From assembly GCA_035635735.1 (NCBI GenBank), contig DASQAM010000281.1, positions 1 through 32,172 on the forward strand: a DNA stretch of 32,172 nt, in the 5' to 3' direction. Source of the stretch: Gemmatimonadales bacterium. GTDB taxonomy: Bacteria; Gemmatimonadota; Gemmatimonadetes; Gemmatimonadales; GWC2-71-9. This document shows positions 5,942 through 25,738 of the stretch, one piece after another (position 1 is the first letter of the stretch; each line of letters opens with the position of its first letter). A program made the position numbers and the translations under genes. The notes beneath the pieces were generated by a model that saw only the letters and a list, made by a program, of their open reading frames with translations, was not told the origin of the DNA and did not search any database.

Positions 5942-6968
5942 ACGTGCGCAGGCACGCCTCCTGCTGCGGCTGCTGCTGAACGGCGATCGCCCGCCCATCG
6001 CGCGCGTGGACTGGCCTGCCCTGCTCCACCTGGCCCGCACCAACGGCGTCGTGATCCGCAGCGCCGACCTGTTGATGGCGCAGAACGTGACGCTGCCGCC
6101 GGCCTTCGCGAACAGCGTGGTGCGGGAGCGGCAGCGCGTGCAGGACGCGATCGGCCTGGTGCGCCAGGTCAGCCGGATCTGCACCGCGCACGGGATCGAG
6201 TTTCTGTTCGCCAAGGCGTTTCAGCACTACCCCGACCTGGGCGGCGACCTCGATCTGCTCGTGCTGGCTCGCGCCGCGGAAGTGGACGCCCTGCTCGCTC
6301 GCGAGCTGTCAGCCACCGTCGCGCCCCGGGATCTCGCCGGCTGGGTCGCCGGGAGCGTCACCTTCCGCGTTCGCGACGGGCTGCCGCCCCTGGACGTGCA
6401 ACATGGACGGATCGGGGCCGTCGGTGAACACCGGGCGTACGCCGTCGCGCTCGTGCGGAATCACCGGCAGATCGTGATCGACGGAACCGAGTGCGCGGTG
6501 CCCTGGCCGGAAGACCAGATCGTGCTCCAAGGCGTGCAGCGGATCTACGGGCGTCGGTCCCTGCGGTTGTCCGACGTCGCGTACACGATCGCGTCCCTGC
6601 GCGATCCGCTCGACTGGCCGTACGTCCTCAGCACGGCCCGCCGCATCGGCGTGCTGCCCGGCTTGGGCTGCTACCTGAGCTACGTCGAGCAGATCCACGG
6701 CGAGCTGTTCGGTGGCCCGCTCGTCCCGCAGCAGGTGCGCGACCGCCTGCCGCTCGCGGGGTGGGGCCGGGTGGAGTTCATGCGCGGGGCGTATCGGTTC
6801 CCGGCGCTGCGCGTGAACGCGCGGCTGTACCTCAAGCAGTTGGTCGCCGGGCTGTGGACCGCAAACTGGGATCGCGCGGCGCGATTGTGCCTGCTGCCGC
6901 TCGTGGGCGCGGCGCTGGCGGCCGGGCGCGTCGGCGCCGTGTCGTCGCGCTCGCTGGAGTCCGCGTGA
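5913..6968 (+). CDS. Uncharacterised nucleotidyltransferase (PF14907 / NTP_transf_5-like)
   Basis: Start is ATG 5913 or the in-frame GTG 5931; both overlap the upstream gene end (5941). Motif IEFLFAKAFQHYPDLGGDLDLLVLARAAEVDALL. It ends in a GTGA overlap with the next gene. Confidence 0.65.
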   Translation: MGRPPNVRDERAQARLLLRLLLNGDRPPIARVDWPALLHLARTNGVVIRSADLLMAQNVTLPPAFANSVVRERQRVQDAIGLVRQVSRICTAHGIEFLFAKAFQHYPDLGGDLDLLVLARAAEVDALLARELSATVAPRDLAGWVAGSVTFRVRDGLPPLDVQHGRIGAVGEHRAYAVALVRNHRQIVIDGTECAVPWPEDQIVLQGVQRIYGRRSLRLSDVAYTIASLRDPLDWPYVLSTARRIGVLPGLGCYLSYVEQIHGELFGGPLVPQQVRDRLPLAGWGRVEFMRGAYRFPALRVNARLYLKQLVAGLWTANWDRAARLCLLPLVGAALAAGRVGAVSSRSLESA

Positions 6969-8173
6969 GCACCGCGCGCACGGCCGATTTCCTGATCGTC
7001 GGTGGCGGCGTCATCGGCCTCACGATCGGCCTGGAGTTGAAGCGCCGCCGTCCGGACGCAGCCGTCACGCTGATCGAGAAGGAGGACGCCTGCGGTATGC
7101 ACGCGAGCGGGCGCAACAGCGGCGTGCTGCATGCCGGCTTTTACTATACGGCGGACTCGCTGAAGGCCCGCTTCACCAAGGCGGGGAACCGCGCGTGGAG
7201 CGCCTATTGCGAAGCGCGCGGGCTCCGCATCAATCGCTGCGGCAAGCTGGTCGTGGCTCGCAGCGCCCAGGAGTTGGCCGGATTGGACGAGCTGTCGCGC
7301 CGGGCCCGGGCCAACGGCGTCGAGCTCGCGGCGCTCACCGCCGACGAGGCGCGTCGCATCGAACCGCGCGTGCGCACCCACGAGCGCGCGCTGTTTTCCC
7401 CGACCACGGCCTCGGTAGACCCCGCTGAGCTGATCGCGGCGCTGACGACCGACGCGCTCGCGCTCGGCCTCACGATCCGCACCGCGACCGCGTACCGCGG
7501 GACGACGCGAGGGGCCGTACGGACTTCCGCTGGACGGTTTGCCGCCGGCTACGTGATCAACGCCGCGGGGCTGTATGCCGATCGCATTGCCCGCGACTAC
7601 GGCTTCGGCGAGCGGTACCGCATCCTGCCGTTCCGCGGCCTGTACCTCCAGGGCAACGGCGGCAGTCGGCCGCCGCGGACGCACGTCTATCCGGTGCCGG
7701 ATCTTGGGCAGCCGTTCCTGGGTGTGCATTTCACCGTCACGGTCACCGGCCACGCGACGATCGGGCCCACGGCCATTCCCGCGTTCTGGCGCGAGCACTA
7801 CGGCGGGATGGCGAACTTCGACCCGCGCGAGTGCGCGGAAATCCTCGCCTGTGAGGCGGGCCTGCTGCTCTCCAACGAGGGTGATTTTCGGTCACTGGCG
7901 TGGAGCGAGGTGCGCAAGTACAGCCGGCGCCGGCTGGTCCGCCTCGCCGCCGAGCTGGTGGAAGGGACGGAGCCCGCGGCGTATCGCCGCTGGGGCCCCG
8001 CGGGGATCCGCGCGCAGCTGTTCGATCGCCAGACCCGCAGGCTCGAGATGGATTTCCGCTACGAGGGCGACGACCGCTCCTTCCACGTGCTCAACGCCGT
8101 GTCGCCGGGCTTCACCTGTGCCCTGCCCTTCGCGGCCCACGTGACCGACTGCATCGAGCGGCTCCGCGCATGA
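6965..8173 (+). CDS. lhgO: L-2-hydroxyglutarate oxidase-like FAD-dependent oxidoreductase (DAO family)
   Basis: GTG 6965 forms a GTGA overlap; the track ORF 6491-8173 is N-terminally over-extended. Motifs: FLIVGGGVIGLTIG (FAD Rossmann), HASGRNSGVLHAGFYYTADSLKA, ILPFRGLY, YPVPDLGQPFLGVHFT, PAGIRAQL, NAVSPGFT. From memory these run colinear with E. coli LhgO/YgaF along the whole length. Confidence 0.75.
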   Translation: MSTARTADFLIVGGGVIGLTIGLELKRRRPDAAVTLIEKEDACGMHASGRNSGVLHAGFYYTADSLKARFTKAGNRAWSAYCEARGLRINRCGKLVVARSAQELAGLDELSRRARANGVELAALTADEARRIEPRVRTHERALFSPTTASVDPAELIAALTTDALALGLTIRTATAYRGTTRGAVRTSAGRFAAGYVINAAGLYADRIARDYGFGERYRILPFRGLYLQGNGGSRPPRTHVYPVPDLGQPFLGVHFTVTVTGHATIGPTAIPAFWREHYGGMANFDPRECAEILACEAGLLLSNEGDFRSLAWSEVRKYSRRRLVRLAAELVEGTEPAAYRRWGPAGIRAQLFDRQTRRLEMDFRYEGDDRSFHVLNAVSPGFTCALPFAAHVTDCIERLRA

Positions 8174-9420
8174 TCTCGGCCCCCGCCCTCGTGGCGCCTC
8201 CGTCGCTCGCGCGCGAGCGCGTGCTGGTGCTGGACGCCCACACCAACCAGGCGCTGGCATGCGCCCGCTCGCTCGGCCGCGCCGGTCACGAGGTGTTCGT
8301 CGCGAGCCATCGGTTGTGGCCGCTCGCCGCCTGGTCGACCTATTCCCGCGGCCGGTTCCGGCTGGCGGGCGAGTCGGTCGAGGCGTTCGCCGAGCTGCGC
8401 GCCTGGGCGGGCGAGCGTGGCGTGACGGTCGTGCTGCCGCTCACCGAGCGCGCCTGCCTGCTCTGCAACGCGGAGCGCCACGCATGGGAGGCCCTGGGCA
8501 TCGTGGTGGGGTGCGGCCCGGACGAAATGTTGCTGCGGGCATTCGACAAGGCGGAGACGGCGCGCTACGCCACGGCCAGCGGCGCCGCGCTGCCCCCGAC
8601 CAAGGCGCCCCGATCGCTCGCCGAGTGCCGGGCGGCGGCCCAAGCGGTGGGCTTTCCCTGCGTCGTCAAGCCGCGGTTCAGCAACGTCCACGATGGCTTC
8701 GTGTTCCAGCCGGGAGAGTCGGCGCGCTACGTCGGCCATCCGGACCAGCTCGACGCAGCGATCGAAGCGACGCGACAGGGCGATCGCTGGCCCCTGATTC
8801 AGGGATTCGTGCCCGGCGCGGGCAAGGGGGTGTTCGCGCTGTGTAACCACGGCGAAGCCGTGGCCTGGTTCGCCCACGAGCGGTTGCGGGACGTCCGCCC
8901 GTCGGGCTCCGGCAGCAGCTTGCGCCGGGCCATCGCGCTCGACCCGCGGCTGCGCGCGCCGGCGGAGCGTCTGCTGCGCCAGATGCAATGGCACGGCCCG
9001 GCGATGGTCGAGTTCCGCGACGACGGTGTCAACGCACCGTACCTGATCGAGGTGAACGGCCGTTTCTGGGGCTCGCTACAGCTCGCCGTCTCGGCCGGCG
9101 TGGATTTTCCGCACCTCTGGCTGGCGCTGCTCCGCAATCACAGGCTCCCCCCCTCCCGCGGCTACGTCGAGGGCGTGACGCTGCGGTGGCTCTGGGGAGA
9201 CGTGAAACGCTTCCTCTACATCCTCGCCGGGGCACCGCGGGGGTATCCGGGTCCCTACCCGAGCGTCTGGCAAGGTGTGCGGGAGCTGTTGGGCCCGCAG
9301 CCGCGAGGCACCCTGAACGAAACCTGGACCGCCGGCGACCGCTGGCCCGTCCTAGGGGAGGTCGTCCAAGGGGTGCGCGAGCTCGTGATCCGGTTGCTGC
9401 GGCGCGGCGCGCCGCCCGTC
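8170..9420 (+). other. Domain: ATP-grasp
   Basis: Motifs FPCVVKPRFS..., GFVPGAGKGVFAL, MVEFRDDG..PYLIEVNGRFWGSL (E-x-N). Boundaries are approximate. Confidence 0.75.
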
Positions 9421-11577
9421 CCCGCGCCGGTGTCCATGGATGCGTCCCACGCCCTGCGCGTCCTCATGCTCACGCCTGACTGGCCCACGCCGGATCGCCC
9501 CCGCACGACCAATTTCATCAAGCGCCAGGCGGAAGCGCTGCGGGCCGCGGGGGCCCATATCGACGTCTTCCATTTCGCCGCCGAGCAGCGGCTCTGGAAC
9601 TATCTGCGCGCGTGGCGCGCCGTGCGCCGCCGCCTCGCCACGGGACGCTACGACCTCGTCCACGCCCAATTCGGGCAGAGCGGCCTCGTGGCGTTGCCCA
9701 AACGCGTACCTCTCGTGGTCACGTTCCGCGGCAGCGACCTGTTGGGCATCGTGAGCGACAAGACCGGCCGTCATACCTGGCGGGGCCGCGTGGCGCAGCG
9801 GTGTTCCCGCATGGTTGCGCGCCTGGCGGACGCCGTGATCGTGGTGTCCGAGCACATGAAGGCGCAGCTCCCCGCCGCCGTGCGCCCGACCGTGATCCCG
9901 TCCGGCCTCGACCTGAAGCTGTTTCATCCGATTCCCCGCGACGAGGCGCGGCGGCGGCTGGGGTGGTCGCCCGGCCGGCGCGTCGTGCTGTTCGTCGGCC
10001 GACCGTTTCAAGCACGCAAGCGGCACAGCCTCGCTCGCGATGCAGTGGCGCTCCTCAACCGCTCCCTCCCCGCAGAGCTGGTGGTCGCCTGGGGCGTGCC
10101 CCACACCGAGATGCCGGTCTACATGAGCGCGGCCGACGTGCTGGTCTGCACGTCGATGCAAGAAGGGTCTCCCAACGTCGTCAAAGAAGCACTCGCGTGC
10201 GATCTGCCGGTGGTCTCGGTGCCCGTGGGGGACGTGGCGCTGCGTCTCCAGGGGGTCGCGGGATGCGAGCTGTGCGCCGACGACCGGCCCGAGACGATCG
10301 CCGCCGCGCTCGAGCGCGTCCTGCGCCGCGACCAACGCATCGACGGTCGCGACGCAGTCCGACCGCTGGACGAGGAGTTGCTGACCCAGCAGGTCCTGGA
10401 CATCTACCGGTCGGTCGTCAACGGTCACGCCCTCGACCGGCGAGGGCTCGGGAAGGGCCGCTTGACGGTACGCAAGGCGTCGCCGTCCGAAGAGCTCGAG
10501 TGGAACACGTTGGTGCAGCGGTTCGACCACTGCCGCATCGCCCATACGCGCGCGTGGCTCCGCTCGCTCGAAGCCTCCGGCTGCGGCCAGCCACTCTACC
10601 TCGTGTTCGAGCGGGATCACGAGATCGTAGGCTGTCTGCCCGGTCTCCTGGTGCGGTTCGGCCCGCTCCGCTTGTTCGGCTCCCCATTGCCGGGGTGGCA
10701 AACCGTCAGCATGGGTCCGGTGTTCGACGAGCGCCGGGTTTCTGCGGCGGACCTCGTCGCCACGCTGGTGCCGTTCCTCCGTCACCGCTACGGCATCCAC
10801 CACATCGAGCTGATGTGCAGCCATCTGGATCCCGCTGCCATGCAGGCCGCGGGCTTCCGGGGCGACGCCGTCACCACCTACCGGGCGCCGCTCGCTGCGG
10901 ACGAGGCCACGACGATGAAGGCCATGAAGGACAGCACGCGGCGCAATGTGCGACGCGCGATCAAGCTCGGCCTCGTCACCCGATTCGAAACCGAGGAGTC
11001 CTTCGTGGACGAGCACTACTCCCAGATCAAGGAAGTCTACGCCCGCCGCGGCTTCAGCGTGCCGTTCGGTAAACGGCGGGTGCTGGAGTTCTTTCGCCAC
11101 ATGAAGGCAGCCGGCAGCCTGCTGGCAATCGCCGTCTACCTCGAAGACGGGGGGCCGTGCATCGCGACGGGCATGTTCACCGTGCACGGCCGCGAGCTGC
11201 TGCTGTCGATGTGGACCCATCGCACCCGGTACCGCTGGTACCGGCCGACGGAGCTGATGACGTGGACGGTCATGCAAAAGGCGATGGCGCTGGGGTGCGA
11301 CAACTTCGATTTGATGGGCCGCGGTGATTTCAAGGCCAAGTTCGGCGCGACCCCGGACGCGAGCAAGCGCCGTTGGGTGTGGAGCCGTTACGCCTGGCTC
11401 ACCGCGGCGCGCGATCTGGCCGAGAAGGGCTACCGCTGGCAGCAAGGCATCCGCGGCCGCTTGGCCCGGCTGACGTCCACATCCCTGCCGCCCAGCCCGG
11501 TCGAAGCCGGCCAGGTGGAGGATGAGCAGCCTGCGCGGTCGCCCAGCCGCGTCCCCGTGGAGACCACCCATGCGTGA
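8170..11577 (+). CDS. Tri-domain fusion: ATP-grasp ligase + GT1 (GT4-like) glycosyltransferase + FemAB/CelD-like GNAT (PF13480-type) acyl/aminoacyl-transferase
   Basis: ATG 8170 forms an ATGA overlap with the lhgO-like stop; the track ORF 7900-11577 is over-extended. One uninterrupted frame of 1135 aa, with short Pro/Gly-rich linkers between the domains. Confidence 0.8.
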   Translation: MISAPALVAPPSLARERVLVLDAHTNQALACARSLGRAGHEVFVASHRLWPLAAWSTYSRGRFRLAGESVEAFAELRAWAGERGVTVVLPLTERACLLCNAERHAWEALGIVVGCGPDEMLLRAFDKAETARYATASGAALPPTKAPRSLAECRAAAQAVGFPCVVKPRFSNVHDGFVFQPGESARYVGHPDQLDAAIEATRQGDRWPLIQGFVPGAGKGVFALCNHGEAVAWFAHERLRDVRPSGSGSSLRRAIALDPRLRAPAERLLRQMQWHGPAMVEFRDDGVNAPYLIEVNGRFWGSLQLAVSAGVDFPHLWLALLRNHRLPPSRGYVEGVTLRWLWGDVKRFLYILAGAPRGYPGPYPSVWQGVRELLGPQPRGTLNETWTAGDRWPVLGEVVQGVRELVIRLLRRGAPPVPAPVSMDASHALRVLMLTPDWPTPDRPRTTNFIKRQAEALRAAGAHIDVFHFAAEQRLWNYLRAWRAVRRRLATGRYDLVHAQFGQSGLVALPKRVPLVVTFRGSDLLGIVSDKTGRHTWRGRVAQRCSRMVARLADAVIVVSEHMKAQLPAAVRPTVIPSGLDLKLFHPIPRDEARRRLGWSPGRRVVLFVGRPFQARKRHSLARDAVALLNRSLPAELVVAWGVPHTEMPVYMSAADVLVCTSMQEGSPNVVKEALACDLPVVSVPVGDVALRLQGVAGCELCADDRPETIAAALERVLRRDQRIDGRDAVRPLDEELLTQQVLDIYRSVVNGHALDRRGLGKGRLTVRKASPSEELEWNTLVQRFDHCRIAHTRAWLRSLEASGCGQPLYLVFERDHEIVGCLPGLLVRFGPLRLFGSPLPGWQTVSMGPVFDERRVSAADLVATLVPFLRHRYGIHHIELMCSHLDPAAMQAAGFRGDAVTTYRAPLAADEATTMKAMKDSTRRNVRRAIKLGLVTRFETEESFVDEHYSQIKEVYARRGFSVPFGKRRVLEFFRHMKAAGSLLAIAVYLEDGGPCIATGMFTVHGRELLLSMWTHRTRYRWYRPTELMTWTVMQKAMALGCDNFDLMGRGDFKAKFGATPDASKRRWVWSRYAWLTAARDLAEKGYRWQQGIRGRLARLTSTSLPPSPVEAGQVEDEQPARSPSRVPVETTHA
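9454..10416 (+). other. Domain: GT1-family glycosyltransferase
   Basis: LRVLMLTPDWPTP...FIKRQAEALRAAG and an EX7E motif (MQEGSPNVVKEALAC). By-eye alignment suggests about 70% aa identity to the standalone GT1 at 12772-13827. Confidence 0.8.
10462..11430 (+). other. Domain: FemAB/CelD-like GNAT (Acetyltransf_6-type)
   Basis: The pattern EWNTLV....AHTRAWLRSLE...YLVFERDHEIVGCLPG...MKDSTRRNVRRAIKLG...YRPTELMTWTVMQKAMALGCDNFDLMG is the same architecture as the standalone gene 15675-16700. Boundaries are approximate. Confidence 0.6.
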
Positions 11578-14867: not shown

Positions 14868-14883
14868 CCGAGGAGACTCCCGC

Positions 14884-15678
14884 TTGTCCACGCGCACACC
14901 GCGGATCGCGAGCTTCGGCTACCACGAGGTGACGGACGATCCCACGATGTCGGGCTTCCAGCGGCCGGCCGCTCTCCCGTTCAAGCACACGCCCCGTGCG
15001 TTTGCCGAGCACCTCGCGACTGTCGCCGCCGGACCGTTCGTCCCCGGCCTCATCGGGGATATCGACTTCACCCGCCCCGGCCGGCACGTCCTGCTCACCT
15101 TCGACGACGGGGGTAAGAGCGCCGTTTACGTCGCGGACCAGCTGTCCCGGCGGGGGTGGAGGGGGCACTTCTTCATCGTCACCAGCTTGATTGGCACCCG
15201 CACGTTCCTCGATGCGGCGGACATCCGGTACCTGCGTAGCAGCGGCCATGTCGTCGGCAGCCATTCGCACACCCACCCCGACATCTTTCGCGACGAGACG
15301 CCCCAGCGGATGATCGAGGAGTGGCGCACGAGCTGCGGGATCCTGGCCGACCTGCTGGGCGAGCCGTGCAGCATAGCCTCGGTGCCCGGCGGCGACATCT
15401 CGACCGCCGTGCTGCGCTCGGCGGCGCCCGCCGGCCTGCGCTACCTGTTCACGTCCGAGCCGTGGACGGCGCCCCGACAAATGAACGGCACCTGGATCCT
15501 CGGGCGCTTCGGCCCGAAGGTCGGTACGTCTCCGGCTCGTGTGGGCGCGCTCGTGCGGTTCCACGGCTGGCAGAGCGCCCTCCTCGAGCGTCGCCTGAAA
15601 GGGGTGGTGCGGCGCAGTCTTCCGGCCCTGTACCGCTTCTACGTCCGGCGCACTACCCAGGACTGGGTGCCTCAATGA
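14884..15678 (+). CDS. Polysaccharide deacetylase (CE4 / NodB-homology)
   Basis: TTG start with GAGGAG 8 nt upstream (14871-14876). Motifs LLTFDDGG and GSHSHTHP. Confidence 0.8.
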   Translation: MSTRTPRIASFGYHEVTDDPTMSGFQRPAALPFKHTPRAFAEHLATVAAGPFVPGLIGDIDFTRPGRHVLLTFDDGGKSAVYVADQLSRRGWRGHFFIVTSLIGTRTFLDAADIRYLRSSGHVVGSHSHTHPDIFRDETPQRMIEEWRTSCGILADLLGEPCSIASVPGGDISTAVLRSAAPAGLRYLFTSEPWTAPRQMNGTWILGRFGPKVGTSPARVGALVRFHGWQSALLERRLKGVVRRSLPALYRFYVRRTTQDWVPQ

Positions 15679-18877: not shown

Positions 18878-18935
18878 GCGGATTCGCTGCACGGCGCACC
18901 GGGCGGCCCCCCGCGACCGAGACGGTTCGAACAGG

Positions 18936-20399
18936 GTGACGCCGGTGCACGCCCGCAGGCTGGCATACCTGGCCGGCACCATTGCCCTAGGCTGCGGCGG
19001 GGCCGCGCCGATCCCGCTGGTCCCGCCCCGCGGCTACTATACGGCGCCTTCCGGCTCGACCAACGGGGACGGGACCTTGAGCAGCCCGTGGAGCCTGTCG
19101 ACCGCGTTGCTCGGGGGGAACGGAGCCGTTCGCCCGGGCGACACCATCTGGTTGCGCGGCGGCACCTACAGCGGCGAGTTCACGAGCACCCTCACCGGCA
19201 GCGGTCGCAGCCCGATTATCGTCCGAGGCCTCTCCGGCGAGCGGGCCACGATCGACGGCCGGCTGAACGTGTTCGGCGCCGACGCCGTGTACTGGGGGCT
19301 GGAGCTGATGCAGTCGGACCCGGTCGCGACCGGGGAGGACGCCCTGGATGCCACGGGACCGAGCAAGCAGTTCATCAACCTGGTGATTCACGACGCCGGG
19401 AAGCAGGGCTTCAGCTTCTACGACGCGGGGGGCGTGTCCGAGCTGTATGGGTCCATCATCTACAACAACGGGACTCATGAAGAGTTCGACCACGGGGTCT
19501 ACGCGGTCAACGACGCCGGCACCAAGTATATTCGCGACAACATCATCTTCAACAATCTGGCGTACGGGATCCATGTCTTCGCGACACCCGACCACTCCGT
19601 GCTCGCAGACGTGCACGTCGAAGGGAATGTCTCCTTCAATAACGGCTCCATCTCCACCCACGGTATGGCGAAATCGAATCTGGTCATGGGGGGAGACCAG
19701 CCGACCAAGGGGATGCACGCGCTGGACAACCGCCTCTATTTTGCGGCCGGTGCGACCGGATCGAACGCGCGCTTCGGCGTGGCGGGGCAAGCCAACGAGG
19801 ACGTGGAGCTGCGGAACAACTACGTGGTCGGCGGGGCCACCGCCCTGCAGCTCGAGAGCTGGCAGTCTGCCACCGTGCAGAACAACACCTGGCTCGGCGC
19901 CGAGGACATGGTATACCTGACCGCCGCCGCCGCCGCCGCCGCCCCGGCGTATACCTGGGGCGGCAACACGTGGTATCGCGACCCGGCCGCCTCCGCCTGG
20001 CGCTACGAGGCGACCCCCTACTCGTTCGACGCTTGGCGGACGGCCACCGGTCTGGGCGCGAGCGACCAGACGACGCAGGACGGCCCGACCGGGCAAGCGG
20101 TGTTCGTGCAGGCGAACCAGTACGAGCCGGGGCGCGCCCACATCATCGTATACAACTGGAGCGGGGAGGCGACGACCCTCGTGAACGTGTCGGGACTCCT
20201 GCACACCGGGGACCACTACGAGGTGCACAACGCCCAGGACTTCTTCGGGGTCCCCGTGACGACGGGTACCTACGACGGCAGCCCCATCGTCGTATCGATG
20301 GCCGGCGTCAATCCCCCGGTCCCGCTCGGCCGGAGCACGCCCACGCCGCCGAAGACGGCGCCGTTCTTCGACGTCTTCGTGCTCACCCGCACCCCGTAG
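18936..20399 (+). CDS. Right-handed parallel beta-helix (pectate-lyase-fold) lipoprotein; candidate glycan lyase/hydrolase/epimerase
   Basis: Start is GTG 18936 or GTG 18945; the track ORF 18633-20399 is over-extended. The signal peptide has a lipobox-like LAGTIALGC. The motif SSPWSLSTALLGGNGAVRPGDTIWLRGGTYSG is followed by repeated N-rich beta-helix turns (IIYNNG, IIFNNLAYGIHV, VSFNNG). Confidence 0.7.
   Translation: MTPVHARRLAYLAGTIALGCGGAAPIPLVPPRGYYTAPSGSTNGDGTLSSPWSLSTALLGGNGAVRPGDTIWLRGGTYSGEFTSTLTGSGRSPIIVRGLSGERATIDGRLNVFGADAVYWGLELMQSDPVATGEDALDATGPSKQFINLVIHDAGKQGFSFYDAGGVSELYGSIIYNNGTHEEFDHGVYAVNDAGTKYIRDNIIFNNLAYGIHVFATPDHSVLADVHVEGNVSFNNGSISTHGMAKSNLVMGGDQPTKGMHALDNRLYFAAGATGSNARFGVAGQANEDVELRNNYVVGGATALQLESWQSATVQNNTWLGAEDMVYLTAAAAAAAPAYTWGGNTWYRDPAASAWRYEATPYSFDAWRTATGLGASDQTTQDGPTGQAVFVQANQYEPGRAHIIVYNWSGEATTLVNVSGLLHTGDHYEVHNAQDFFGVPVTTGTYDGSPIVVSMAGVNPPVPLGRSTPTPPKTAPFFDVFVLTRTP
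19923..19943 (+). repeat. (GCC)7 trinucleotide tract encoding Ala7 inside the beta-helix lipoprotein gene
   Basis: Direct reading: acc gcc gcc gcc gcc gcc gcc gcc ccg. Confidence 0.95.
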
Positions 20400-20406
20400 C
20401 CCGACG

Positions 20407-21153
20407 ATGAACTGCAAGGCCCTGTTCTACCCGGAAAGCCGTTTCGGTGGCTTCACCGACAGCGACGCCTACGTCGTCTTCTACGCCCGGGTCAACGCGC
20501 TCCTGACGCCCGACTCGGTGGTGCTGGATATCGGTTGCGGACGCGGCGCCTATGCGGACGACCCGGTGGCGTTCCGGCGGCAACTGCGGATTCTCAAGGG
20601 CAAAGGCCGCCGGGTCATCGGGATCGACGTCGACCCGGCGGCGGCGGCGCATCCATTCCTCGACGAGTTCCGCCGGCTCGAGCCGGCGAACGGCCGCTGG
20701 CCGGTGGACGACGCCTCCATCGACGTCGCCGTGAGCGTCAGCGTCCTGGAGCACGTGGAGGACCCGGAGCATTTCTTCGCCGAATGTCGCCGCGTCATCA
20801 AGCCGGGGGGCTACCTCTGCCTGCGGACCACGAACGTCCTGAGCTATTTCGGCGTCGTCGCGCGCCTGATCCCGAACCGCTACCATGCCGCGATCATTCG
20901 TCGCGTGTCCGAGAGTCCCCGCGACGAGGTGGACGTCTTCCCCACGCTGTACCGCTGCAACACCCTCTTCAAGGTGCGACGGTTGTTGCGCCGGTTCGGG
21001 TTCGAGCACTACGTGTACGGTTACCAATCGGAGCCCTCGAGTCTCTCGTTTTCGCGCTTCTTCTATTTCTGGGGCGTCATCCACCAACACATCGCGCCCA
21101 CCATGCTGAAGCCCACCATCTTCGCCTTTGCGCGACGGGGACAGGCGGGGTAG
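20407..21153 (+). CDS. Class I SAM-dependent methyltransferase
   Basis: Motif I VVLDIGCGRGAY and a post-I acidic residue (GIDVD), plus LEHVEDP and IKPGGYLCL. Confidence 0.8.
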   Translation: MNCKALFYPESRFGGFTDSDAYVVFYARVNALLTPDSVVLDIGCGRGAYADDPVAFRRQLRILKGKGRRVIGIDVDPAAAAHPFLDEFRRLEPANGRWPVDDASIDVAVSVSVLEHVEDPEHFFAECRRVIKPGGYLCLRTTNVLSYFGVVARLIPNRYHAAIIRRVSESPRDEVDVFPTLYRCNTLFKVRRLLRRFGFEHYVYGYQSEPSSLSFSRFFYFWGVIHQHIAPTMLKPTIFAFARRGQAG

Positions 21154-21166
21154 ACAGGGAGCACCC

Positions 21167-23179
21167 ATGTGCGGCATTACGGGCTACTTTCGACCGGGCG
21201 GGCTGGACCCAAGCCGCGTAGACGCGACGCTCGCGGCGATGACGGACGTCATTCGTCACCGCGGGCCCGACGACAGTGGCACCTGGGTGGACGCTGGCGC
21301 GGGGATCGCGCTGGGGTTCCGCCGGCTCGCCATCCTCGACTTGACGCCCAACGGACACCAACCGATGGCGTCCGCCTGCGGACGCTATGTCCTGATCTTC
21401 AACGGCGAGATCTACAACTTTCGGGAGCTTCATAGCCAGCTGGTGGGCTTGGGTCATCGCTTCCGCGGGCACTCGGACACGGAAGTCATGCTGGCCGCGT
21501 TCAGCCAGTGGGGCGTGTTCGAGGCGGTCCAGCGCTTCAACGGGATGTTCGCATTCGCCCTCTGGGATCGGCACGATCGCGTGCTCCATTTCGCGCGCGA
21601 CCGCGCGGGGGAAAAGCCCGTCTACTACGGGTGGATGGGCGATACCCTGCTGTTCGGATCCGAGCTCAAGGCGCTGCGGGCCCACGACCAGTTCACCGCC
21701 GCGCTCGATCACGATGCGCTGGCCGTGTTTCTCCGGTTGGGGTACGTACCCTGCCCCCATACCATCTACCGAGGCATCTGGAAGCTGCCGCCCGGCACGC
21801 TCCTGAGCCTCCGGAGCGACCACGGCCACGAGCTACCGGCTCCAGTGCCCTATTGGTCCGCGCGTCAGGCCGTCGAACAGGGGTGCGCCGATCCCTTCCG
21901 CGGGTCGCCGGACGAAGCCCTGGAGCAGTTCGACACGCTGCTCCGGGACGCCGTCAAGATCCGCATGGAGGCGGACGTGCCCCTCGGCGCGTTTCTCTCG
22001 GGGGGCATCGACTCGTCCACCGTGGTCGCGCTGATGCAGGCGCAGAGCGATCGCCCGGTTCGCACCTTCACGATCGGCTTCCTCGAGGCCGGCTACAACG
22101 AGGCCCAGCACGCGCGGGCGGTCGCACGGCACCTCGGCACGGCGCACACGGAGCTGTACGTGACGCCGGTGGAAGCGCTCGCGGTGATTCCGCGCCTGCC
22201 CGCCTTGTACGACGAGCCATTCGCCGACCCGTCCATGATTCCGACGTTCCTCGTTTCCGAGCTGGCACGGCAGCACGTCACGGTGAGCCTGTCGGGCGAC
22301 GGCGGAGACGAGCTCTTCGGCGGGTACGGGCGCTACCGGCTGGGACGCGCGCTGTGGCGCAGCTTCGGCTGGATCCCTCACCGGCTGCGCCGAGGCGCGG
22401 CTGCCCTAATCCGGCCGCGTGGGGCGCCGGGACGGCTCTCGAACGCCGTCGACGACGTGGCCCGGCGCTTCACCGGCTCACGCAGCCTGCGCGAGCGGAT
22501 GCGGCAAGCGGCGGACGTGGTCTCCGCTCCATCGTCGACCGCCCTGTATCACTATCTCATGTCGTATTGGAAGCAACCGGCGACGGTGGCGCTCGGCGCC
22601 ACCGAGCCGCCTATTGCCCACACCGACCCTCGCCGCTGGGCGCACGTGCCCGAGATGGCGCACCAGATGATGTATCTGGACCTCGTCACCTATCTCCCGG
22701 ACGACATCCTGGTCAAGCTCGATCGCGCCAGCATGGGGGTCAGCCTCGAAGGTCGGGTCCCGCTGTTGGATCATCGCGTGATGGAGTTCGCCTGGCGCCT
22801 GCCCCTGGGGCTCAAGCTGCGAGACGGCGTGGGCAAGTGGCTGCTGCGTCGGTTGGTGCAGCAGTATCTGCCGCCGGCGTTGGCGGCGCGGCCCAAGATG
22901 GGGTTTGGCGTACCGATTTCCGCGTGGCTGCGCGGCCCACTGCGCCCCTGGGCGGAGGCCCTGCTCGACGAGCAGCGCCTCCGCCGGGAGGGGATTCTCG
23001 ATGCCCGACCGATCCGGACCAAGTGGATGGAGCACGCCTCGGGCCGGACCCGCTGGGATTACGACCTCTGGGCGGTGCTCATGTTCCAGGCCTGGCTGGA
23101 GGCGAACCCCGGCAAACCCGCCCGCGCGACGTCCCAGCCTTCACGCGCTCACCGGGACTCGTACGCTCCGATATCATAA
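21167..23179 (+). CDS. asnB: Asparagine synthase (glutamine-hydrolysing) family amidotransferase
   Basis: ATG 21167 has AGGGAG 6 nt upstream. The N-terminal nucleophile is MCGITGY, and a PP-loop is present (FLSGGIDSSTVVALM). This is the AsnB family, as seen in EPS loci; the true substrate is unknown. Confidence 0.85.
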   Translation: MCGITGYFRPGGLDPSRVDATLAAMTDVIRHRGPDDSGTWVDAGAGIALGFRRLAILDLTPNGHQPMASACGRYVLIFNGEIYNFRELHSQLVGLGHRFRGHSDTEVMLAAFSQWGVFEAVQRFNGMFAFALWDRHDRVLHFARDRAGEKPVYYGWMGDTLLFGSELKALRAHDQFTAALDHDALAVFLRLGYVPCPHTIYRGIWKLPPGTLLSLRSDHGHELPAPVPYWSARQAVEQGCADPFRGSPDEALEQFDTLLRDAVKIRMEADVPLGAFLSGGIDSSTVVALMQAQSDRPVRTFTIGFLEAGYNEAQHARAVARHLGTAHTELYVTPVEALAVIPRLPALYDEPFADPSMIPTFLVSELARQHVTVSLSGDGGDELFGGYGRYRLGRALWRSFGWIPHRLRRGAAALIRPRGAPGRLSNAVDDVARRFTGSRSLRERMRQAADVVSAPSSTALYHYLMSYWKQPATVALGATEPPIAHTDPRRWAHVPEMAHQMMYLDLVTYLPDDILVKLDRASMGVSLEGRVPLLDHRVMEFAWRLPLGLKLRDGVGKWLLRRLVQQYLPPALAARPKMGFGVPISAWLRGPLRPWAEALLDEQRLRREGILDARPIRTKWMEHASGRTRWDYDLWAVLMFQAWLEANPGKPARATSQPSRAHRDSYAPIS

Positions 23180-25710: not shown

Positions 25711-25738
25711 AAAATCCATTCCTCGATTCGGGTCCGCC

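What the first reader, a model, noticed from the sequence alone, without database searches (positions are those of the whole stretch)
6965..23179. The enzyme set predicts an amino-acid or hydroxy-acid-decorated, amidated glycan made without NRPS or ribosomal steps
One co-oriented locus combines two ATP-grasp ligases, two FemAB/CelD-like GNATs, a CE4 deacetylase, an AsnB-type glutamine amidotransferase, a SAM methyltransferase and an LhgO-like FAD oxidase, alongside the GT1/GT2 transferases and Wzx/Wzy. A coherent inferred pathway runs as follows. The deacetylase exposes an amino-sugar amine. The ATP-grasp or FemAB enzymes re-acylate it, or a uronic acid, with an amino acid or dicarboxylic acid. 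AsnB amidates a free carboxylate. The methyltransferase caps the product. FemAB-related proteins, deacetylases and AsnB-like amidotransferases are known markers of PEP-CTERM/exosortase-type EPS loci, but their chemistry is essentially uncharacterised. No exosortase, PEP-CTERM substrate, initiating phosphoglycosyl transferase, Wzz/PCP or Wza gene is visible in this window.
Basis: inference. Interest (0 to 1): 0.7.

Follow-up and report, generated by a model that had tools for sequence, protein, structure and literature searches.

The report
Tailored surface-sugar operon of soil bacterium

Summary
The gene inventory is confirmed. Window 319-23179 is one co-oriented, mostly start/stop-overlapping operon of 16 genes, probably from an uncultured soil Gemmatimonadales bacterium. 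It encodes Wzx, Wzy, two ATP-grasps, two FemAB-like GNATs, two GT4s, a GT2, a CE4, a membrane SDR, a beta-helix lipoprotein, a methyltransferase and AsnB. One ATP-grasp, one GT4 and one GNAT are fused in a single 1135-aa protein.

A tailored, amide-bearing glycan remains the best reading. The ATP-grasp recurs in 190 species genomes, fused to GT4, GT2, GNAT, a CapK-like ligase or a P-loop kinase, and almost always has a CE4 nearby.

The LhgO-like oxidase tracks the SDR gene instead: they are adjacent in 57 of 69 testable metagenome loci, and only 6 of 37 long loci hold any ATP-grasp. The SDR's closest solved relative is, from my memory, Cj1427, which reduces 2-oxoglutarate to L-2-hydroxyglutarate. 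A redox-recycling pair is therefore more likely than a hydroxy-acid decoration.

The PEP-CTERM link is weak. Only FemAB passes its subfamily model, and no exosortase appears in the window or among the membrane ORFs of 160 related loci. The "missing" priming transferase, aminotransferase and Wzc-like gene lie just upstream in a relative. A conserved c-di-GMP riboswitch controls the neighbouring lipoprotein operon.

The parts
2..220 (+). 3' end of an upstream gene for a secreted metallophosphoesterase (Metallophos + PKD type)
   Evidence: The 72-aa fragment aligns to the C-terminus of L012:3-1949, which carries PF00149 + PKD. Homologues occur in 19 ATP-grasp-anchored and 14 LhgO-anchored loci.
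319..3969 (+). 1216-aa fusion. Wzx/MOP flippase (about 319-1758), then an NTP_transf_5-like domain plus a thymidylate-kinase-like P-loop (about 1759-3273), then a second P-loop domain (about 3274-3969).
   Evidence: PF13440 244.3 bits. The middle part scores weakly for PF14907 (E 0.0015) and PF02223 (E 6.5e-5). The C-terminus matches AAA_33/AAA_18. The gene is called as 1216 aa in the JGI contig. In relatives the three parts are separate genes (L008).
3966..5261 (+). Wzy_C-domain membrane protein: repeat-unit polymerase, or a ligase
   Evidence: PF04932 44.9 bits against a cutoff of 31.7. TIGR03097 scores only 24.3 against 188. Its GTG start overlaps the preceding stop.
5255..5941 (+). Thymidylate-kinase-like P-loop protein, the most conserved partner of the ATP-grasp
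   Evidence: PF02223 35 bits. Present in 37 of 39 long Gemmatimonadota and Acidobacteriota loci. Fused to the ATP-grasp or to NTP_transf_5 in some relatives (P0101, P0145, P0156).
5913..6968 (+). NTP_transf_5 (Pol-beta-fold) nucleotidyltransferase, substrate unknown
   Evidence: PF14907 41 bits. G110, D112 and D114 are invariant. The AlphaFold model has pLDDT 91.8. Its only Foldseek hit below E 0.001 is MenT1, with ANT(2'')-Ia and CCA-adding enzymes at E 0.002-0.03, and TM-scores are low. No PDB sequence relative.
6965..8173 (+). LhgO-like FAD-dependent L-2-hydroxyglutarate oxidase/dehydrogenase
   Evidence: NF008726 294.2 bits against 299, covering profile positions 2-388 of 389. Best PDB match is 8w75, 148 bits. 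Close relatives lie next to an SDR gene in 57 of 69 testable loci.
8170..11577 (+). 1135-aa tri-domain protein: ATP-grasp (about 8170-9369), GT4 (about 9415-10480) and FemAB-like GNAT (about 10495-11577)
   Evidence: PF15632, PF13439/PF00534 and PF13480 all hit one ORF. The identical gene call appears in independent assemblies. Homologues P0002-P0009 and P0011-P0013 keep all three domains. The ATP-grasp model has pLDDT 93.1, and its best Foldseek match is 2pn1 at E 3e-18. E294, N296 and R298 are invariant.
11570..12775 (+). Second, distantly related ATP-grasp ligase
   Evidence: PF15632 34.7 bits. Best PDB match 2pn1, E 1.6e-6. 28% identical to ATP-grasp 1 over the C-terminal half. Follows the ATP-grasp-GNAT fusion in 8 of 20 Acidobacteriota loci.
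12772..13827 (+). Stand-alone GT4 glycosyltransferase, a recent paralogue of the GT4 domain in the tri-domain protein
   Evidence: PF13439 and PF00534. 72% identity to window 9415-10480.
13824..14867 (+). GT2 glycosyltransferase with C-terminal membrane segments
   Evidence: PF00535 94.7 bits. Present in 19 of 19 long Gemmatimonadota loci.
14884..15678 (+). CE4 polysaccharide de-N-acetylase
   Evidence: PF01522 66.1 bits. TFDDG and HSHTH motifs. No TIGR03006 hit. Present in 19 of 19 long Gemmatimonadota loci; a different CE4 is present in 19 of 20 Acidobacteriota loci.
15675..16700 (+). FemAB-family GNAT, presumed aminoacyl-tRNA-dependent transferase
   Evidence: TIGR03019 273.7 bits, above 260.35, covering 1-330 of 330. 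Weak PDB match to an aminoacyl-tRNA-dependent peptide synthase, 9wqy. Lies in CE4-FemAB-SDR-LhgO blocks in L121, L122, L134, L135 and L152.
16904..18877 (+). Membrane-anchored sugar-nucleotide SDR: 4 TM + CoA_binding_3 (like the N-terminal half of a PGT) + extended SDR with a Tyr-x3-Arg motif
   Evidence: PF13727 61.8 bits and PF01370 155.1 bits. TIGR03025 matches its positions 2-229 only. The SDR domain's best PDB match is 6vo6/6vo8 at 146.7 bits, ahead of 6wjb at 115. YxxxR occurs in 59 of 62 family members.
18843..20399 (+). Beta-helix (Pel9A-like) lipoprotein, a probable glycan lyase or hydrolase
   Evidence: PF13229. PF22842 in the precomputed annotation. Lipobox ...ALGC. Homologues in 19 of 20 Acidobacteriota and 6 of 19 Gemmatimonadota long loci.
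20407..21153 (+). Class I SAM-dependent methyltransferase (accessory)
   Evidence: PF08241 60.8 bits. Among the ATP-grasp-anchored loci, a homologue appears only in L013.
21167..23179 (+). AsnB-type glutamine-hydrolysing amidotransferase
   Evidence: PF00733 407.6 bits; TIGR01536 489.5 bits, above 267; TIGR03108 592.6 bits, below 816.9. N-terminal MCGI. Present in 15 of 19 long Gemmatimonadota loci.
23149..25719 (-). Lipoprotein with Big_2/Big_1 repeats and a Pel9A-like beta-helix; convergent with AsnB
   Evidence: PF02368 143.5 bits, beta-helix, choice-of-anchor Q. Lipobox. Conserved neighbour in 10 of 19 Gemmatimonadota loci.
25739..28753 (-). Lipoprotein with Big_2/Big_1/invasin repeats and a PF04185 phosphoesterase domain
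   Evidence: PF02368 279.2 bits and PF04185 101.9 bits. Lipobox. Conserved neighbour in 10 of 19 Gemmatimonadota loci.
28811..28897 (-). c-di-GMP-I riboswitch aptamer leading the two-lipoprotein operon
   Evidence: RF01051 65.6 bits against a gathering score of 35, covering the full model. The same element sits at the 5' end of the homologous operon in 7 of 7 related loci tested.

Best explanation
The finding covers the distal two-thirds of a single operon of about 23 kb (window 319-23179), probably from an uncultured soil Gemmatimonadales bacterium. The operon assembles and tailors an undecaprenyl-linked repeat unit by the Wzx/Wzy route. The product is most likely an extracellular or cell-surface heteropolysaccharide belonging to a c-di-GMP-controlled matrix programme.

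Shown here:
- The gene content, the domain fusions, the catalytic motifs and the conservation pattern.

Inferred:
1. The membrane-anchored SDR (16904-18877) oxidises a nucleotide-sugar hydroxyl (probably C4) to a keto-sugar. Like Cj1427 and WbpB, it re-oxidises its bound NADH with 2-oxoglutarate, which releases L-2-hydroxyglutarate.
2. The LhgO-like flavoenzyme (6965-8173) converts that by-product back to 2-oxoglutarate. This pulls the reaction forward and prevents product inhibition.
3. In relatives, a C4-type aminotransferase and a small priming transferase lie beside these genes, so the keto-sugar probably becomes an amino sugar.
4. GT4, GT4 and GT2 extend the unit at the membrane.
5. CE4 removes an N-acetyl group.
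6. The free amines and/or carboxylates are then joined to small acids or amino acids. The two ATP-grasp ligases would work through an acyl-phosphate. The two FemAB-type GNATs would use an aminoacyl-tRNA donor.
7. AsnB converts a remaining carboxylate to a carboxamide, and the methyltransferase adds a methyl group.
8. Wzx flips the unit and Wzy polymerises it. Secreted beta-helix and phosphoesterase lipoproteins process the polymer.

The identities of the sugars and acyl groups are unknown. So are the roles of the conserved P-loop kinase-like and NTP_transf_5 proteins.
For: Operon structure:
- GC3 frame plot and start/stop overlaps.
- Wzx and Wzy domains.

The ATP-grasp acts on the glycan:
- The tri-domain ORF is conserved.
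- Rosetta-stone fusions join the ATP-grasp to GT4, GT2, GNAT, a CapK-like ligase and a thymidylate-kinase-like protein.
- 190 relatives exist in GTDB species genomes. All of the top 80 are MAGs, nearly all labelled Gemmatimonadota, Acidobacteriota (mostly Pyrinomonadaceae) or Sphingomicrobium.
- Co-occurrence census: CE4 accompanies the ATP-grasp in 38 of 39 long Gemmatimonadota and Acidobacteriota loci, a GT4 is found in most of them, and AsnB is in 15 of 19 Gemmatimonadota loci.
- The ATP-grasp fold is confirmed: pLDDT 93, Foldseek E 3e-18 to 2pn1, invariant E-x-N-x-R.

Other tailoring enzymes:
- FemAB passes TIGR03019.
- AsnB has Cys2 and CE4 has its metal motifs.

The SDR-LhgO pair:
- They are adjacent in 51 + 6 of 69 testable loci.
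- The SDR's best solved relative is 6vo6, 146.7 bits over the full length.
- Cj1427 chemistry: bound NADH is oxidised by 2-oxoglutarate to give L-2-hydroxyglutarate (PMC10680097).
- WbpB is coupled to D-2-HG dehydrogenase, and this coupling is needed for normal O-antigen (PMC8651671).
- A C4-type DegT aminotransferase is present in 34 of 80 LhgO-anchored loci.
- An ATP-grasp is present in only 6 of 37 long SDR+LhgO loci.

Missing pathway parts found in relatives:
- In L099 the priming transferase, DegT and a Wzc-like gene lie just upstream of Wzx.
- Bac_transf is present in 34 of 80 ATP-grasp loci.

Matrix context:
- A c-di-GMP-I riboswitch leads the neighbouring lipoprotein operon here and in 7 of 7 relatives tested.

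Precedents for sugar-amide-forming ATP-grasps:
- Cj1438 and Pyl/UDP-yelosamine.
Against: - No substrate or product is known for any of these proteins. All relatives come from uncultured organisms, so nothing has been tested experimentally.
- The window itself shows no priming transferase, aminotransferase, UDP-sugar 6-dehydrogenase, Wzc or Wza.
- The SDR has Tyr-x3-Arg in place of the canonical Tyr-x3-Lys. It is also similar to true 4-epimerases (6wjb, 115 bits), so a dehydrogenase role is not proven.
- That 6vo6 is Cj1427 rests on my memory. The held papers did not let me confirm the PDB code.
- LhgO falls 5 bits short of its equivalog cutoff.
- The ATP-grasp's nearest structural neighbours are carbamoyl-phosphate synthetase, biotin carboxylase, PurK and PurT, not amino-acid ligases. 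Its acid substrate could therefore be bicarbonate or formate rather than an amino acid.
- The metagenome loci are not phylogenetically independent samples.
Confidence: 0.6

Rival explanations
1. This is a PEP-CTERM/exosortase-type EPS locus in which LhgO takes part in a hydroxy-acid or dicarboxylic-acid decoration. The exosortase and its substrates would be encoded just outside the window.
For: - FemAB passes TIGR03019, 273.7 bits against 260.35.
- AsnB's best model is TIGR03108.
- Some relatives carry a DUF3473-CE4 that nearly reaches TIGR03006, 251.8 against 276.2.
- One related Pyrinomonadaceae locus, L073, holds a genuine PEP-CTERM protein.
- Sigma-54 response regulators sit near SDR-LhgO modules, with TIGR02915 at 359.7 bits.
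Against: - AsnB (592.6 against 816.9), CE4 (no hit), the GT4s and Wzy_C all fail the XrtA-associated models.
- The window has no exosortase, PEP-CTERM tail or PrsK/PrsR.
- None of the polytopic membrane ORFs in 160 related loci (up to +/-10 kb) matched an exosortase model.
- The response regulator scores no better for PrsR than for AtoC.
- LhgO co-localises with the SDR, not with the ligases.
Confidence: 0.12
2. LhgO serves the decoration chemistry. An ATP-grasp would N-acylate an amino sugar with 2-oxoglutarate or L-2-hydroxyglutarate, as Pyl does in UDP-yelosamine synthesis. LhgO would supply 2-oxoglutarate, or oxidise the attached 2-hydroxyglutaryl group.
For: [quoted passage not shown] 2014, as cited in PMC8987622 and PMC11257628).
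- In the window and its closest relatives (L092, L094-L099), LhgO sits directly upstream of the ATP-grasp gene.
- Both ATP-grasps belong to the 'carbamoyl-phosphate-synthase-like' PRK12767/2pn1 group.
Against: - Across relatives LhgO follows the SDR: 57 of 69 loci. Only 6 of 37 long SDR+LhgO loci hold any ATP-grasp.
- Conversely, only 3 of 80 ATP-grasp-anchored loci hold LhgO.
Confidence: 0.15
3. This is a protein O-glycosylation system rather than a polysaccharide. The Wzy_C protein would be an O-oligosaccharyltransferase (PglL/TfpM-like), and the adjacent Big_2 lipoproteins would be its targets.
For: - Pfam's Wzy_C family covers ligases and O-oligosaccharyltransferases as well as polymerases.
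- Weak NCBIfam matches exist to the 'O-glycosylation flippase' model for the window's Wzx (123 bits against 720) and to TfpM for Wzy_C-like ORFs in relatives.
- Ig-repeat lipoproteins are conserved neighbours.
- The small PGT + aminotransferase + membrane SDR layout in relatives resembles the Pgl bacillosamine logic (the comparison is from my own knowledge).
Against: - All those matches are far below their cutoffs.
- Wzc-like co-polymerases in relatives and the secreted beta-helix lyase-like proteins argue for a polymer.
- The lipoproteins are on the opposite strand, under their own riboswitch.
Confidence: 0.08
4. The genes are peptidoglycan or primary-metabolism enzymes (FemX, Ddl-like ligase, PgdA, AsnB/LtsA, LhgO) that merely sit near glycan genes.
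For: - Each family has peptidoglycan or central-metabolism members.
- AsnB passes the generic asparagine synthase model TIGR01536.
- LhgO nearly passes the L-2-hydroxyglutarate oxidase model.
Against: - Start/stop overlaps couple these genes to the glycosyltransferases, Wzx and Wzy.
- There are covalent fusions to GT4 and GT2.
- The lineage-restricted, variable gene content resembles serotype loci.
- Housekeeping genes (HflX, RarA) begin only beyond 29 kb, on the other strand.
Confidence: 0.03

Closest known systems
Cj1438 of Campylobacter jejuni HS:2 capsule (GT2 fused to a TupA-like ATP-grasp amidoligase)
   Same: A glycosyltransferase is fused to an ATP-grasp inside a polysaccharide locus. 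In Cj1438 the ATP-grasp has been shown to form an amide on the glycan's glucuronate carboxylate (PMC11800379).
   Different: - The ATP-grasp subfamily differs: PF15632/PRK12767/2pn1-like here, and Pfam returned no TupA-like ATP-grasp match.
- The domain order is reversed, and a FemAB-like GNAT is added.
- The route is Wzx/Wzy rather than an ABC-transporter capsule.
- The substrate here is unknown.
Pyl, the ATP-grasp of UDP-yelosamine synthesis in Bacillus cereus ATCC 14579
   Same: Pyl is an ATP-grasp that N-acylates a UDP-4-amino sugar with a small acid (2-oxoglutarate). It is encoded beside a dehydratase, an aminotransferase and a small priming transferase. Relatives of this locus also carry an SDR, a C4-type aminotransferase and a small PGT.
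   Different: - Sequence relationship to Pyl was not tested.
- The keto-sugar here is predicted to come from a dehydrogenase paired with LhgO, not from a 4,6-dehydratase.
- In most loci the ATP-grasp is not linked to the aminotransferase module: 2 of 80.
Cj1427 (C. jejuni GDP-heptose C4-dehydrogenase), and WbpB with D-2-hydroxyglutarate dehydrogenase in Pseudomonas aeruginosa
   Same: These sugar-nucleotide dehydrogenases hold NADH tightly and re-oxidise it with 2-oxoglutarate, producing 2-hydroxyglutarate. In P. aeruginosa, loss of the 2-HG dehydrogenase lowers O-antigen. The SDR domain here is closest to PDB 6vo6, which I recall as Cj1427 (146.7 bits).
   Different: - Here the 2-HG-oxidising enzyme is encoded next to the SDR (57 of 69 loci), a linkage I did not find described.
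- The SDR is membrane-anchored through a PGT-like N-terminal domain.
- It carries Tyr-x3-Arg instead of Tyr-x3-Lys.
- WbpB belongs to a different fold family and makes the D-enantiomer.
XrtA/PEP-CTERM exopolysaccharide loci (Haft's EpsH system; Zoogloea floc-formation cluster)
   Same: They share a FemAB-family protein (TIGR03019 passes), an AsnB-like amidotransferase, a polysaccharide deacetylase, GT4s and a Wzy_C-type protein.
   Different: - There is no exosortase, PEP-CTERM substrate, EpsI or PrsK/PrsR.
- The amidotransferase, deacetylase, GT4s and ligase all fail the XrtA-associated models.
- The core genes here (ATP-grasp, P-loop kinases, NTP_transf_5) are not part of that system, as far as I know.
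PglF/WbpM-type membrane-anchored sugar-nucleotide dehydratases working with a small PglC-type priming transferase
   Same: The architecture matches: an N-terminal membrane domain with a CoA_binding_3-like domain, followed by an SDR. In relatives this pairs with a separate small Bac_transf enzyme and a C4 aminotransferase.
   Different: The SDR domain belongs to the Epimerase/Cj1427-like group (PF01370 155 bits) rather than Polysacc_synt_2 (36.8 bits). Its linkage to LhgO implies net oxidation rather than the internally balanced 4,6-dehydration.

Membership tests
XrtA/PEP-CTERM (exosortase) EPS system | An exosortase (EpsH/XrtA) gene in or near the locus | tested here: not met
   No exosortase family appears among the Pfam or NCBIfam hits of any window ORF. 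No exosortase model matched the polytopic membrane ORFs of 80 ATP-grasp-anchored or 80 LhgO-anchored loci. The rest of the source genome could not be examined.
XrtA/PEP-CTERM (exosortase) EPS system | PEP-CTERM sorting-signal proteins | tested here: not met
   No PEP-CTERM-like C-terminus in any window ORF of 60 aa or more. The secreted proteins carry lipoprotein signals instead. One PEP-CTERM protein was found in relative L073 only (TIGR02595 26.8 bits, above 16).
XrtA/PEP-CTERM (exosortase) EPS system | Associated subfamily models: FemAB TIGR03019, amidotransferase TIGR03108, deacetylase TIGR03006, GT TIGR03088, ligase TIGR03097 | tested here: inconclusive
   FemAB passes (273.7 against 260.35). 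The amidotransferase fails (592.6 against 816.9). CE4 has no hit. The GT4s score 43-44 against 409. Wzy_C scores 24.3 against 188.1. One of five passes.
Wzx/Wzy-dependent glycan assembly | A MOP-family flippase and a Wzy-type polymerase in the operon | tested here: met
   PF13440 244.3 bits and PF04932 44.9 bits, both above their cutoffs. Both genes are translationally coupled to the tailoring genes.
Wzx/Wzy-dependent glycan assembly | Priming phosphoglycosyl transferase and PCP/Wzc co-polymerase | tested here: inconclusive
   Absent from the window. Present immediately upstream of Wzx in relative L099: Bac_transf 157.5 bits, plus Wzz/GNVR/CbiA (P-loop ATPase) domains. Bac_transf is present in 34 of 80 ATP-grasp loci. 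Wza was not looked for specifically.
ATP-grasp carboxylate-amine/thiol ligases | ATP-grasp fold with the Mg/ATP-binding E-x-N motif and conserved lysines | tested here: met
   The model has pLDDT 93.1. Foldseek gives 2pn1 at E 3e-18 with TMt 0.80, then carbamoyl-phosphate synthetase, biotin carboxylase, PurK and PurT. K127, K167, E294, N296 and R298 are invariant in 64 sequences. Ligase activity and substrate were not testable.
FemAB/FemX aminoacyl-tRNA-dependent transferases (PF13480/PF02388) | Family HMM match; use of aminoacyl-tRNA as donor | tested here: inconclusive
   PF13480 scores 57.7 and 45.6 bits, above 22. PF02388 scores 20.2 and 24.6 bits, about at its cutoff of 24. There is a weak PDB match to an aminoacyl-tRNA-dependent peptide synthase, E 0.01. 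The donor cannot be tested with these tools.
Class II (Ntn) glutamine amidotransferase / AsnB | N-terminal catalytic Cys2, plus GATase and Asn_synthase domains | tested here: met
   The protein starts MCGI. PF13522/PF13537 147 bits, PF00733 407.6 bits, and TIGR01536 489.5 bits, above 267.1.
L-2-hydroxyglutarate oxidase (LhgO/LhgD, NF008726) | Equivalog HMM score above cutoff | tested here: inconclusive
   294.2 bits against a cutoff of 299, over 387 of 389 profile positions. Substrate could not be tested.
Cj1427-type ping-pong sugar-nucleotide dehydrogenase | Extended-SDR fold with the Tyr-x3-Lys dyad; tightly bound NADH re-oxidised by 2-oxoglutarate | tested here: inconclusive
   The best PDB relative is 6vo6, 146.7 bits over the full length. 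However, the dyad is Tyr-x3-Arg in 59 of 62 family members. Cofactor behaviour could not be tested. The gene linkage to LhgO (57 of 69 loci) is indirect support.
CE4 polysaccharide deacetylase | NodB domain with the Asp-Asp and His-x-x-x-His metal-binding motifs | tested here: met
   PF01522 66.1 bits, above 23.1. TFDDG and HSHTH were read in the sequence.

The most novel reading that the evidence does not exclude
Two dominant soil phyla (Gemmatimonadota and Acidobacteriota) share an undescribed glycan-tailoring cassette. Its hub is an ATP-grasp ligase, hard-wired by gene fusion to glycosyltransferases, FemAB-type GNATs, CapK-like adenylating enzymes and P-loop kinase / Pol-beta nucleotidyltransferase pairs. 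The cassette would build peptide- or acyl-bearing, possibly phosphorylated or nucleotidylated, side groups on a c-di-GMP-regulated matrix polysaccharide. Alongside it, a dedicated L-2-hydroxyglutarate oxidase is genetically coupled to a membrane-anchored, Tyr-x3-Arg SDR. Together these would form a 2-oxoglutarate/L-2-HG redox shuttle that drives sugar oxidation.
Probability: 0.3. Interest if true: 0.7.

Novelty: new variant of a known kind. Interest (0 to 1): 0.55.

Why it matters
- **Soil relevance.** Matrix polysaccharides of Gemmatimonadota and Acidobacteriota help bind soil aggregates and retain water, yet almost none has been characterised chemically.
- **Cloning targets.** This operon and its roughly 190 relatives offer concrete enzymes to clone and test. 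Examples are an ATP-grasp fused to its glycosyltransferase, and two kinds of FemAB-like transferase.
- **A testable rule.** A membrane SDR encoded next to an L-2-hydroxyglutarate oxidase may mark sugar oxidation driven by 2-oxoglutarate. If correct, this extends the Cj1427/WbpB chemistry, so far known from two pathogens, to a genetically hard-wired enzyme pair. It would also improve the annotation of many "LhgO" genes that are not part of lysine or glutarate catabolism.
- **A caution.** A PEP-CTERM-named FemAB model can match outside exosortase systems.

Tried and rejected
1. **Flank extension.** I tried to extend the window's left flank through contigs of the same organism. All of them are about 29.5-29.9 kb and stop at about the same point. 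The flanks could therefore be seen only in relatives.
2. **Exosortase search.** I looked for an exosortase among polytopic membrane ORFs of the related loci. The hits were only Wzx-like and Wzy/TfpM-like proteins, a zinc transporter, or nothing. A regex for PEP-CTERM tails gave one hit in 80 loci and none in the window.
3. **Sequence search of PDB.** For the ATP-grasps it found only the uncharacterised 2pn1 and generic carboxylases. For NTP_transf_5 it found nothing. For the kinase-like protein it found only P-loop-level matches.
4. **Fold search of the ATP-grasp model.** It did not single out an amino-acid ligase. The neighbours are carbamoyl-phosphate synthetase, biotin carboxylase, PurK and PurT, so the acid substrate remains open.
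5. **Fold search of the NTP_transf_5 model.** It gave only the generic Pol-beta nucleotidyltransferase core at low TM-scores, which is not enough to assign a substrate.
6. **PDB code check.** I could not confirm in the held literature that 6vo6/6vo8 is Cj1427.
7. **PrsR test.** The sigma-54 response regulator near SDR-LhgO modules scored no better for PrsR than for AtoC, so it was rejected as evidence for a PEP-CTERM system.
8. **Glycolipid reading.** I considered a product like GlcN-phosphatidylglycerol, because the GT4s weakly hit NF053787. The score is 56-63 bits against a cutoff of 480, and Wzx, Wzy and the PGT argue against it.
9. **Literature.** Searches found no description of this cassette, nor of PF14907 beyond one passing mention.

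Full report
**Anatomy**

The window has about 70% G+C, so I called genes from third-position GC and frame persistence and refined the starts by hand.

From 319 to 23179, sixteen genes lie on the + strand. Most neighbours overlap by 4-35 nt (ATGA- or GTGA-type start/stop overlaps) or are separated by 7-16 nt. The one larger gap, 203 nt, lies before the SDR gene at 16904.

In order, the operon encodes:
- Wzx fused to two further cytoplasmic modules (319-3969)
- Wzy_C (3966-5261)
- a thymidylate-kinase-like P-loop protein (5255-5941)
- an NTP_transf_5 nucleotidyltransferase (5913-6968)
- the LhgO-like flavoenzyme (6965-8173)
- a 1135-aa ATP-grasp-GT4-GNAT protein (8170-11577)
- a second ATP-grasp (11570-12775)
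- GT4 (12772-13827)
- GT2 (13824-14867)
- CE4 (14884-15678)
- FemAB (15675-16700)
- a 4-TM + CoA_binding_3 + SDR protein (16904-18877)
- a beta-helix lipoprotein (18843-20399)
- a methyltransferase (20407-21153)
- AsnB (21167-23179)

Downstream, on the opposite strand, lie two Ig-repeat lipoproteins (23149-25719 and 25739-28753). Housekeeping genes follow: HflX, a LEA_2 protein and a RarA-like ATPase. Upstream, positions 2-220 are the 3' end of a metallophosphoesterase gene.

**Checking the observation**

AsnB begins MCGI, so it has the catalytic Cys2. CE4 carries the TFDDG and HSHTH motifs.

Three points need correcting:
- One ATP-grasp, one GT4 and one GNAT form a single ORF. It is called identically in JGI, ENA and NCBI assemblies and is conserved at 61-87% identity in eleven other tri-domain protein clusters.
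- Wzx and Wzy lie to the left of the stated start.
- The membrane SDR and the beta-helix lipoprotein lie inside the coordinates but were not listed.

**Source and relatives**

The same DNA occurs in a JGI soil metagenome (sample 3300012205) and in MAGs GCA_009772215.1 and GCA_009772255.1. I scanned one genome per GTDB species with an alignment of the ATP-grasp domain. This found 190 relatives. The best 80 are all MAGs, nearly all labelled Gemmatimonadales/Gemmatimonadaceae, Pyrinomonadaceae/Blastocatellia/Acidobacteriota or Sphingomicrobium. The wider ATP-grasp family has 731 cluster representatives at E <= 1e-30 among 1.84 billion proteins.

**The conserved cassette**

I ran a phmmer census of every window protein against the six-frame ORFs of those loci. 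I then clustered the unmatched ORFs and scanned cluster representatives with HMMs.

Recurrent core shared by both phyla:
- the ATP-grasp (by construction)
- the thymidylate-kinase-like protein (37 of 39 long Gemmatimonadota and Acidobacteriota loci)
- Wzy_C (36 of 39)
- a GT4
- a CE4 deacetylase (38 of 39; the two phyla use different CE4 subfamilies)
- a 506-aa NTP_transf_5-like + P-loop protein (30 of 39)
- another P-loop protein (29 of 39)
- NTP_transf_5 (24 of 39)
- a secreted phosphoesterase
- a beta-helix protein

Lineage-specific additions:
- GT2 (19 of 19) and AsnB (15 of 19) mark the Gemmatimonadota version.
- The GNAT fusion (15 of 20) and the second ATP-grasp (8 of 20) mark the Acidobacteriota version.

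The window combines both versions. Its two GT4 copies are 72% identical, which points to a recent duplication.

The precomputed domain architectures show the ATP-grasp fused in different relatives to GT4, GT2, the GNAT, a CapK-like AMP-binding enzyme and the kinase-like protein. Fusions of GT4 with GNAT + kinase, and of GT4 with NTP_transf_5, also occur. These Rosetta-stone fusions tie the ligase, the glycosyltransferases, the GNAT and the P-loop/NTase proteins into one pathway that acts on the nascent glycan.

By contrast, LhgO, the standalone FemAB, the SDR and the methyltransferase are rare in these loci. They occur in 3, 2, 4 and 1 of the 80, respectively.

**What the ligases are**

The AlphaFold model of ATP-grasp 1 is confident (pLDDT 93.1). 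It matches the ATP-grasp fold: 2pn1 first, then carbamoyl-phosphate synthetase, biotin carboxylase, PurK and PurT. The ATP/Mg residues are invariant.

No characterised close relative exists, by sequence or by fold. The chemistry (an acyl-phosphate, then an amide or related bond) follows from the superfamily, but the acid substrate is unknown.

Two biochemical precedents make a sugar-amide role credible:
- Cj1438 is a GT2 fused to a TupA-like ATP-grasp that amidates the capsule's glucuronate (PMC11800379).

The two GNATs are only 23% identical to each other. The standalone one passes TIGR03019 and weakly resembles an aminoacyl-tRNA-dependent peptide synthase.

**The LhgO gene: a different explanation**

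I scanned metagenome contigs with the LhgO-like protein. This returned 80 loci at 53-98% identity.

- In 51 of the 69 loci with enough flanking DNA, a homologue of the window's membrane SDR lies immediately upstream, on the same strand, with gaps of 0-138 nt.
- In 6 more loci, a soluble SDR lies immediately downstream.
- In 3 more, the SDR is elsewhere in the locus.
- Five of the nine apparent exceptions are short contigs with the window's own gene order, in which the SDR would lie beyond the contig end.
- Only 6 of 37 long SDR+LhgO loci contain any ATP-grasp.

LhgO is therefore tied to the SDR, not to the ligases.

The SDR domain's closest solved relative is 6vo6/6vo8, at 146.7 bits over the full length. 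That is ahead of 6wjb (115 bits) and of the 4,6-dehydratases (about 70 bits). I recall 6vo6 as Cj1427 and 6wjb as the UDP-GlcNAc 4-epimerase PelX. Neither code could be confirmed in the held papers.

Cj1427 is a ping-pong C4-dehydrogenase. Its tightly bound NADH is re-oxidised by 2-oxoglutarate, giving L-2-hydroxyglutarate (PMC10680097). WbpB behaves likewise with D-2-HG, and loss of the D-2-HG dehydrogenase lowers O-antigen (PMC8651671).

The SDR-LhgO pair is flanked by other sugar-pathway genes:
- a C4-type DegT aminotransferase in 34 of 80 loci
- a PIG-L deacetylase in 38
- a small Bac_transf priming transferase in about 30

 An aminotransferase needs a keto-sugar, which fits this picture.

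The most economical reading has three steps. The SDR makes a keto-sugar at the expense of 2-oxoglutarate. LhgO regenerates the 2-oxoglutarate. An aminotransferase then makes the amino sugar.

Caveats:
- The family has Tyr-x3-Arg instead of Tyr-x3-Lys (59 of 62 members).
- LhgO is 5 bits below its equivalog cutoff.
- The window itself shows no aminotransferase.

**The PEP-CTERM question**

- Of the XrtA-associated models, only FemAB passes. AsnB, CE4, the GT4s and Wzy_C do not.
- The window has no exosortase, no PEP-CTERM tail and no PrsK/PrsR.
- None of the polytopic membrane ORFs in either set of 80 related loci matches an exosortase model.
- One PEP-CTERM protein occurs in L073.
- Some relatives have a DUF3473-CE4 that comes close to TIGR03006.

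A distant evolutionary link is possible, but membership is not supported.

In L099, which has the window's gene order, a Bac_transf PGT, a DegT aminotransferase and a divergent Wzz/GNVR (Wzc-like) gene lie directly upstream of Wzx. Bac_transf occurs in 34 of the 80 ATP-grasp loci.

**Regulatory context**

Rfam finds a full-length c-di-GMP-I riboswitch at 28811-28897 on the minus strand, 58 nt upstream of the phosphoesterase lipoprotein gene. The same element heads the homologous operon in all seven relatives tested, and L008 has two copies. This places the neighbourhood in a c-di-GMP-controlled matrix or adhesion programme. It supports an extracellular glycan.

**Unresolved**

The roles of the three P-loop kinase-like domains and the two NTP_transf_5-type domains are not explained. 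The NTP_transf_5 model (pLDDT 91.8) shows a Pol-beta nucleotidyltransferase core with an invariant G-x-D-x-D. Its matches (MenT1, ANT(2'')-Ia, CCA-adding enzymes) have low TM-scores. Together with the conserved secreted phosphoesterases, these genes hint at phosphate- or nucleotide-containing substituents. That remains speculation.

**Verdict**

A tailored, amide-bearing glycan is the best reading. The LhgO role and the exosortase classification should both be revised.
- The locus is a new variant of a known kind: a Wzx/Wzy glycan operon.
- It has two features worth testing experimentally: the fused ATP-grasp hub, and the SDR-LhgO pair.

Noticed in passing
window 28811-28897 (- strand); also L008, L029, L051, L083, L121, L134, L149: A c-di-GMP-I riboswitch (RF01051, 65.6 bits) lies 58 nt upstream of the Big_2/phosphoesterase lipoprotein gene. 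It is conserved at the same position in 7 of 7 related loci tested, and L008 has two copies.
   Followed up: partly
window 16904-18877, residues 454-458 of the protein (PVSLYARTRVLSE): The LhgO-linked membrane SDR family has Tyr-x3-Arg instead of the canonical SDR Tyr-x3-Lys (59 of 62 members). Soluble SDRs that lie downstream of LhgO in other loci keep Tyr-x3-Lys.
   Followed up: partly
window 319-3969: The Wzx flippase is fused to about 740 cytoplasmic residues: an NTP_transf_5-like domain, a thymidylate-kinase-like P-loop and a second P-loop. In relatives these are three separate genes, and in some (L097, L098) Wzx is fused to the last P-loop only.
   Followed up: partly
window 5255-6968 and 1759-3273: The thymidylate-kinase-like + NTP_transf_5 module occurs twice, once as two genes and once as a fusion. 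It is also fused in P0145 and P0156. One paper notes the same pair flanking PEP mutase in a phosphonate gene-cluster family. Its function is unknown.
   Followed up: partly
window 9415-10480 versus 12772-13827: The GT4 domain inside the tri-domain protein and the standalone GT4 are 72% identical. This suggests a recent duplication that created or expanded the fusion.
   Followed up: yes
window 2-220; L012:3-1949: The window begins inside a secreted Metallophos/PKD phosphoesterase gene. Counting the PF04185 lipoprotein at 25739-28753, the operon is bracketed by secreted phosphoesterases, and these recur in about 40 related loci.
   Followed up: partly
L099:3-4893 (contig Ga0070698_100000423): A relative with the window's gene order carries a Wzc-like gene (divergent), a C4-type DegT aminotransferase and a small Bac_transf priming transferase directly upstream of Wzx.
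   Followed up: yes
L073:20058-20933: A genuine PEP-CTERM protein (TIGR02595 26.8 bits, above 16) lies about 9 kb downstream of the ATP-grasp in one Pyrinomonadaceae locus. It is the only such case in 80 loci.
   Followed up: partly
L001-L007 (contigs of 24.8-29.9 kb from JGI, ENA and NCBI): Most of the independent assemblies of this organism (about 29.5-29.9 kb) break at nearly the same left boundary, just upstream of Wzx. A repeat (PKD/Ig-domain gene) or strain variation there may explain it.
   Followed up: no
window 29029-32172 (- strand): HflX GTPase (TIGR03156 421.6 bits), a LEA_2-domain protein (30401-30913) and a RarA-like AAA ATPase mark the return to housekeeping genes. They set the right-hand limit of the glycan region.
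   Followed up: no
window 20407-21153; L056:1299-3266: The methyltransferase's best NCBIfam match is the DVU_1556 family (49 bits against 155). The CapK-like ligase of relatives best matches the DVU_1553 family (106 bits against 300). These are two members of one uncharacterised Desulfovibrio gene neighbourhood. Both scores are far below their cutoffs.
   Followed up: no
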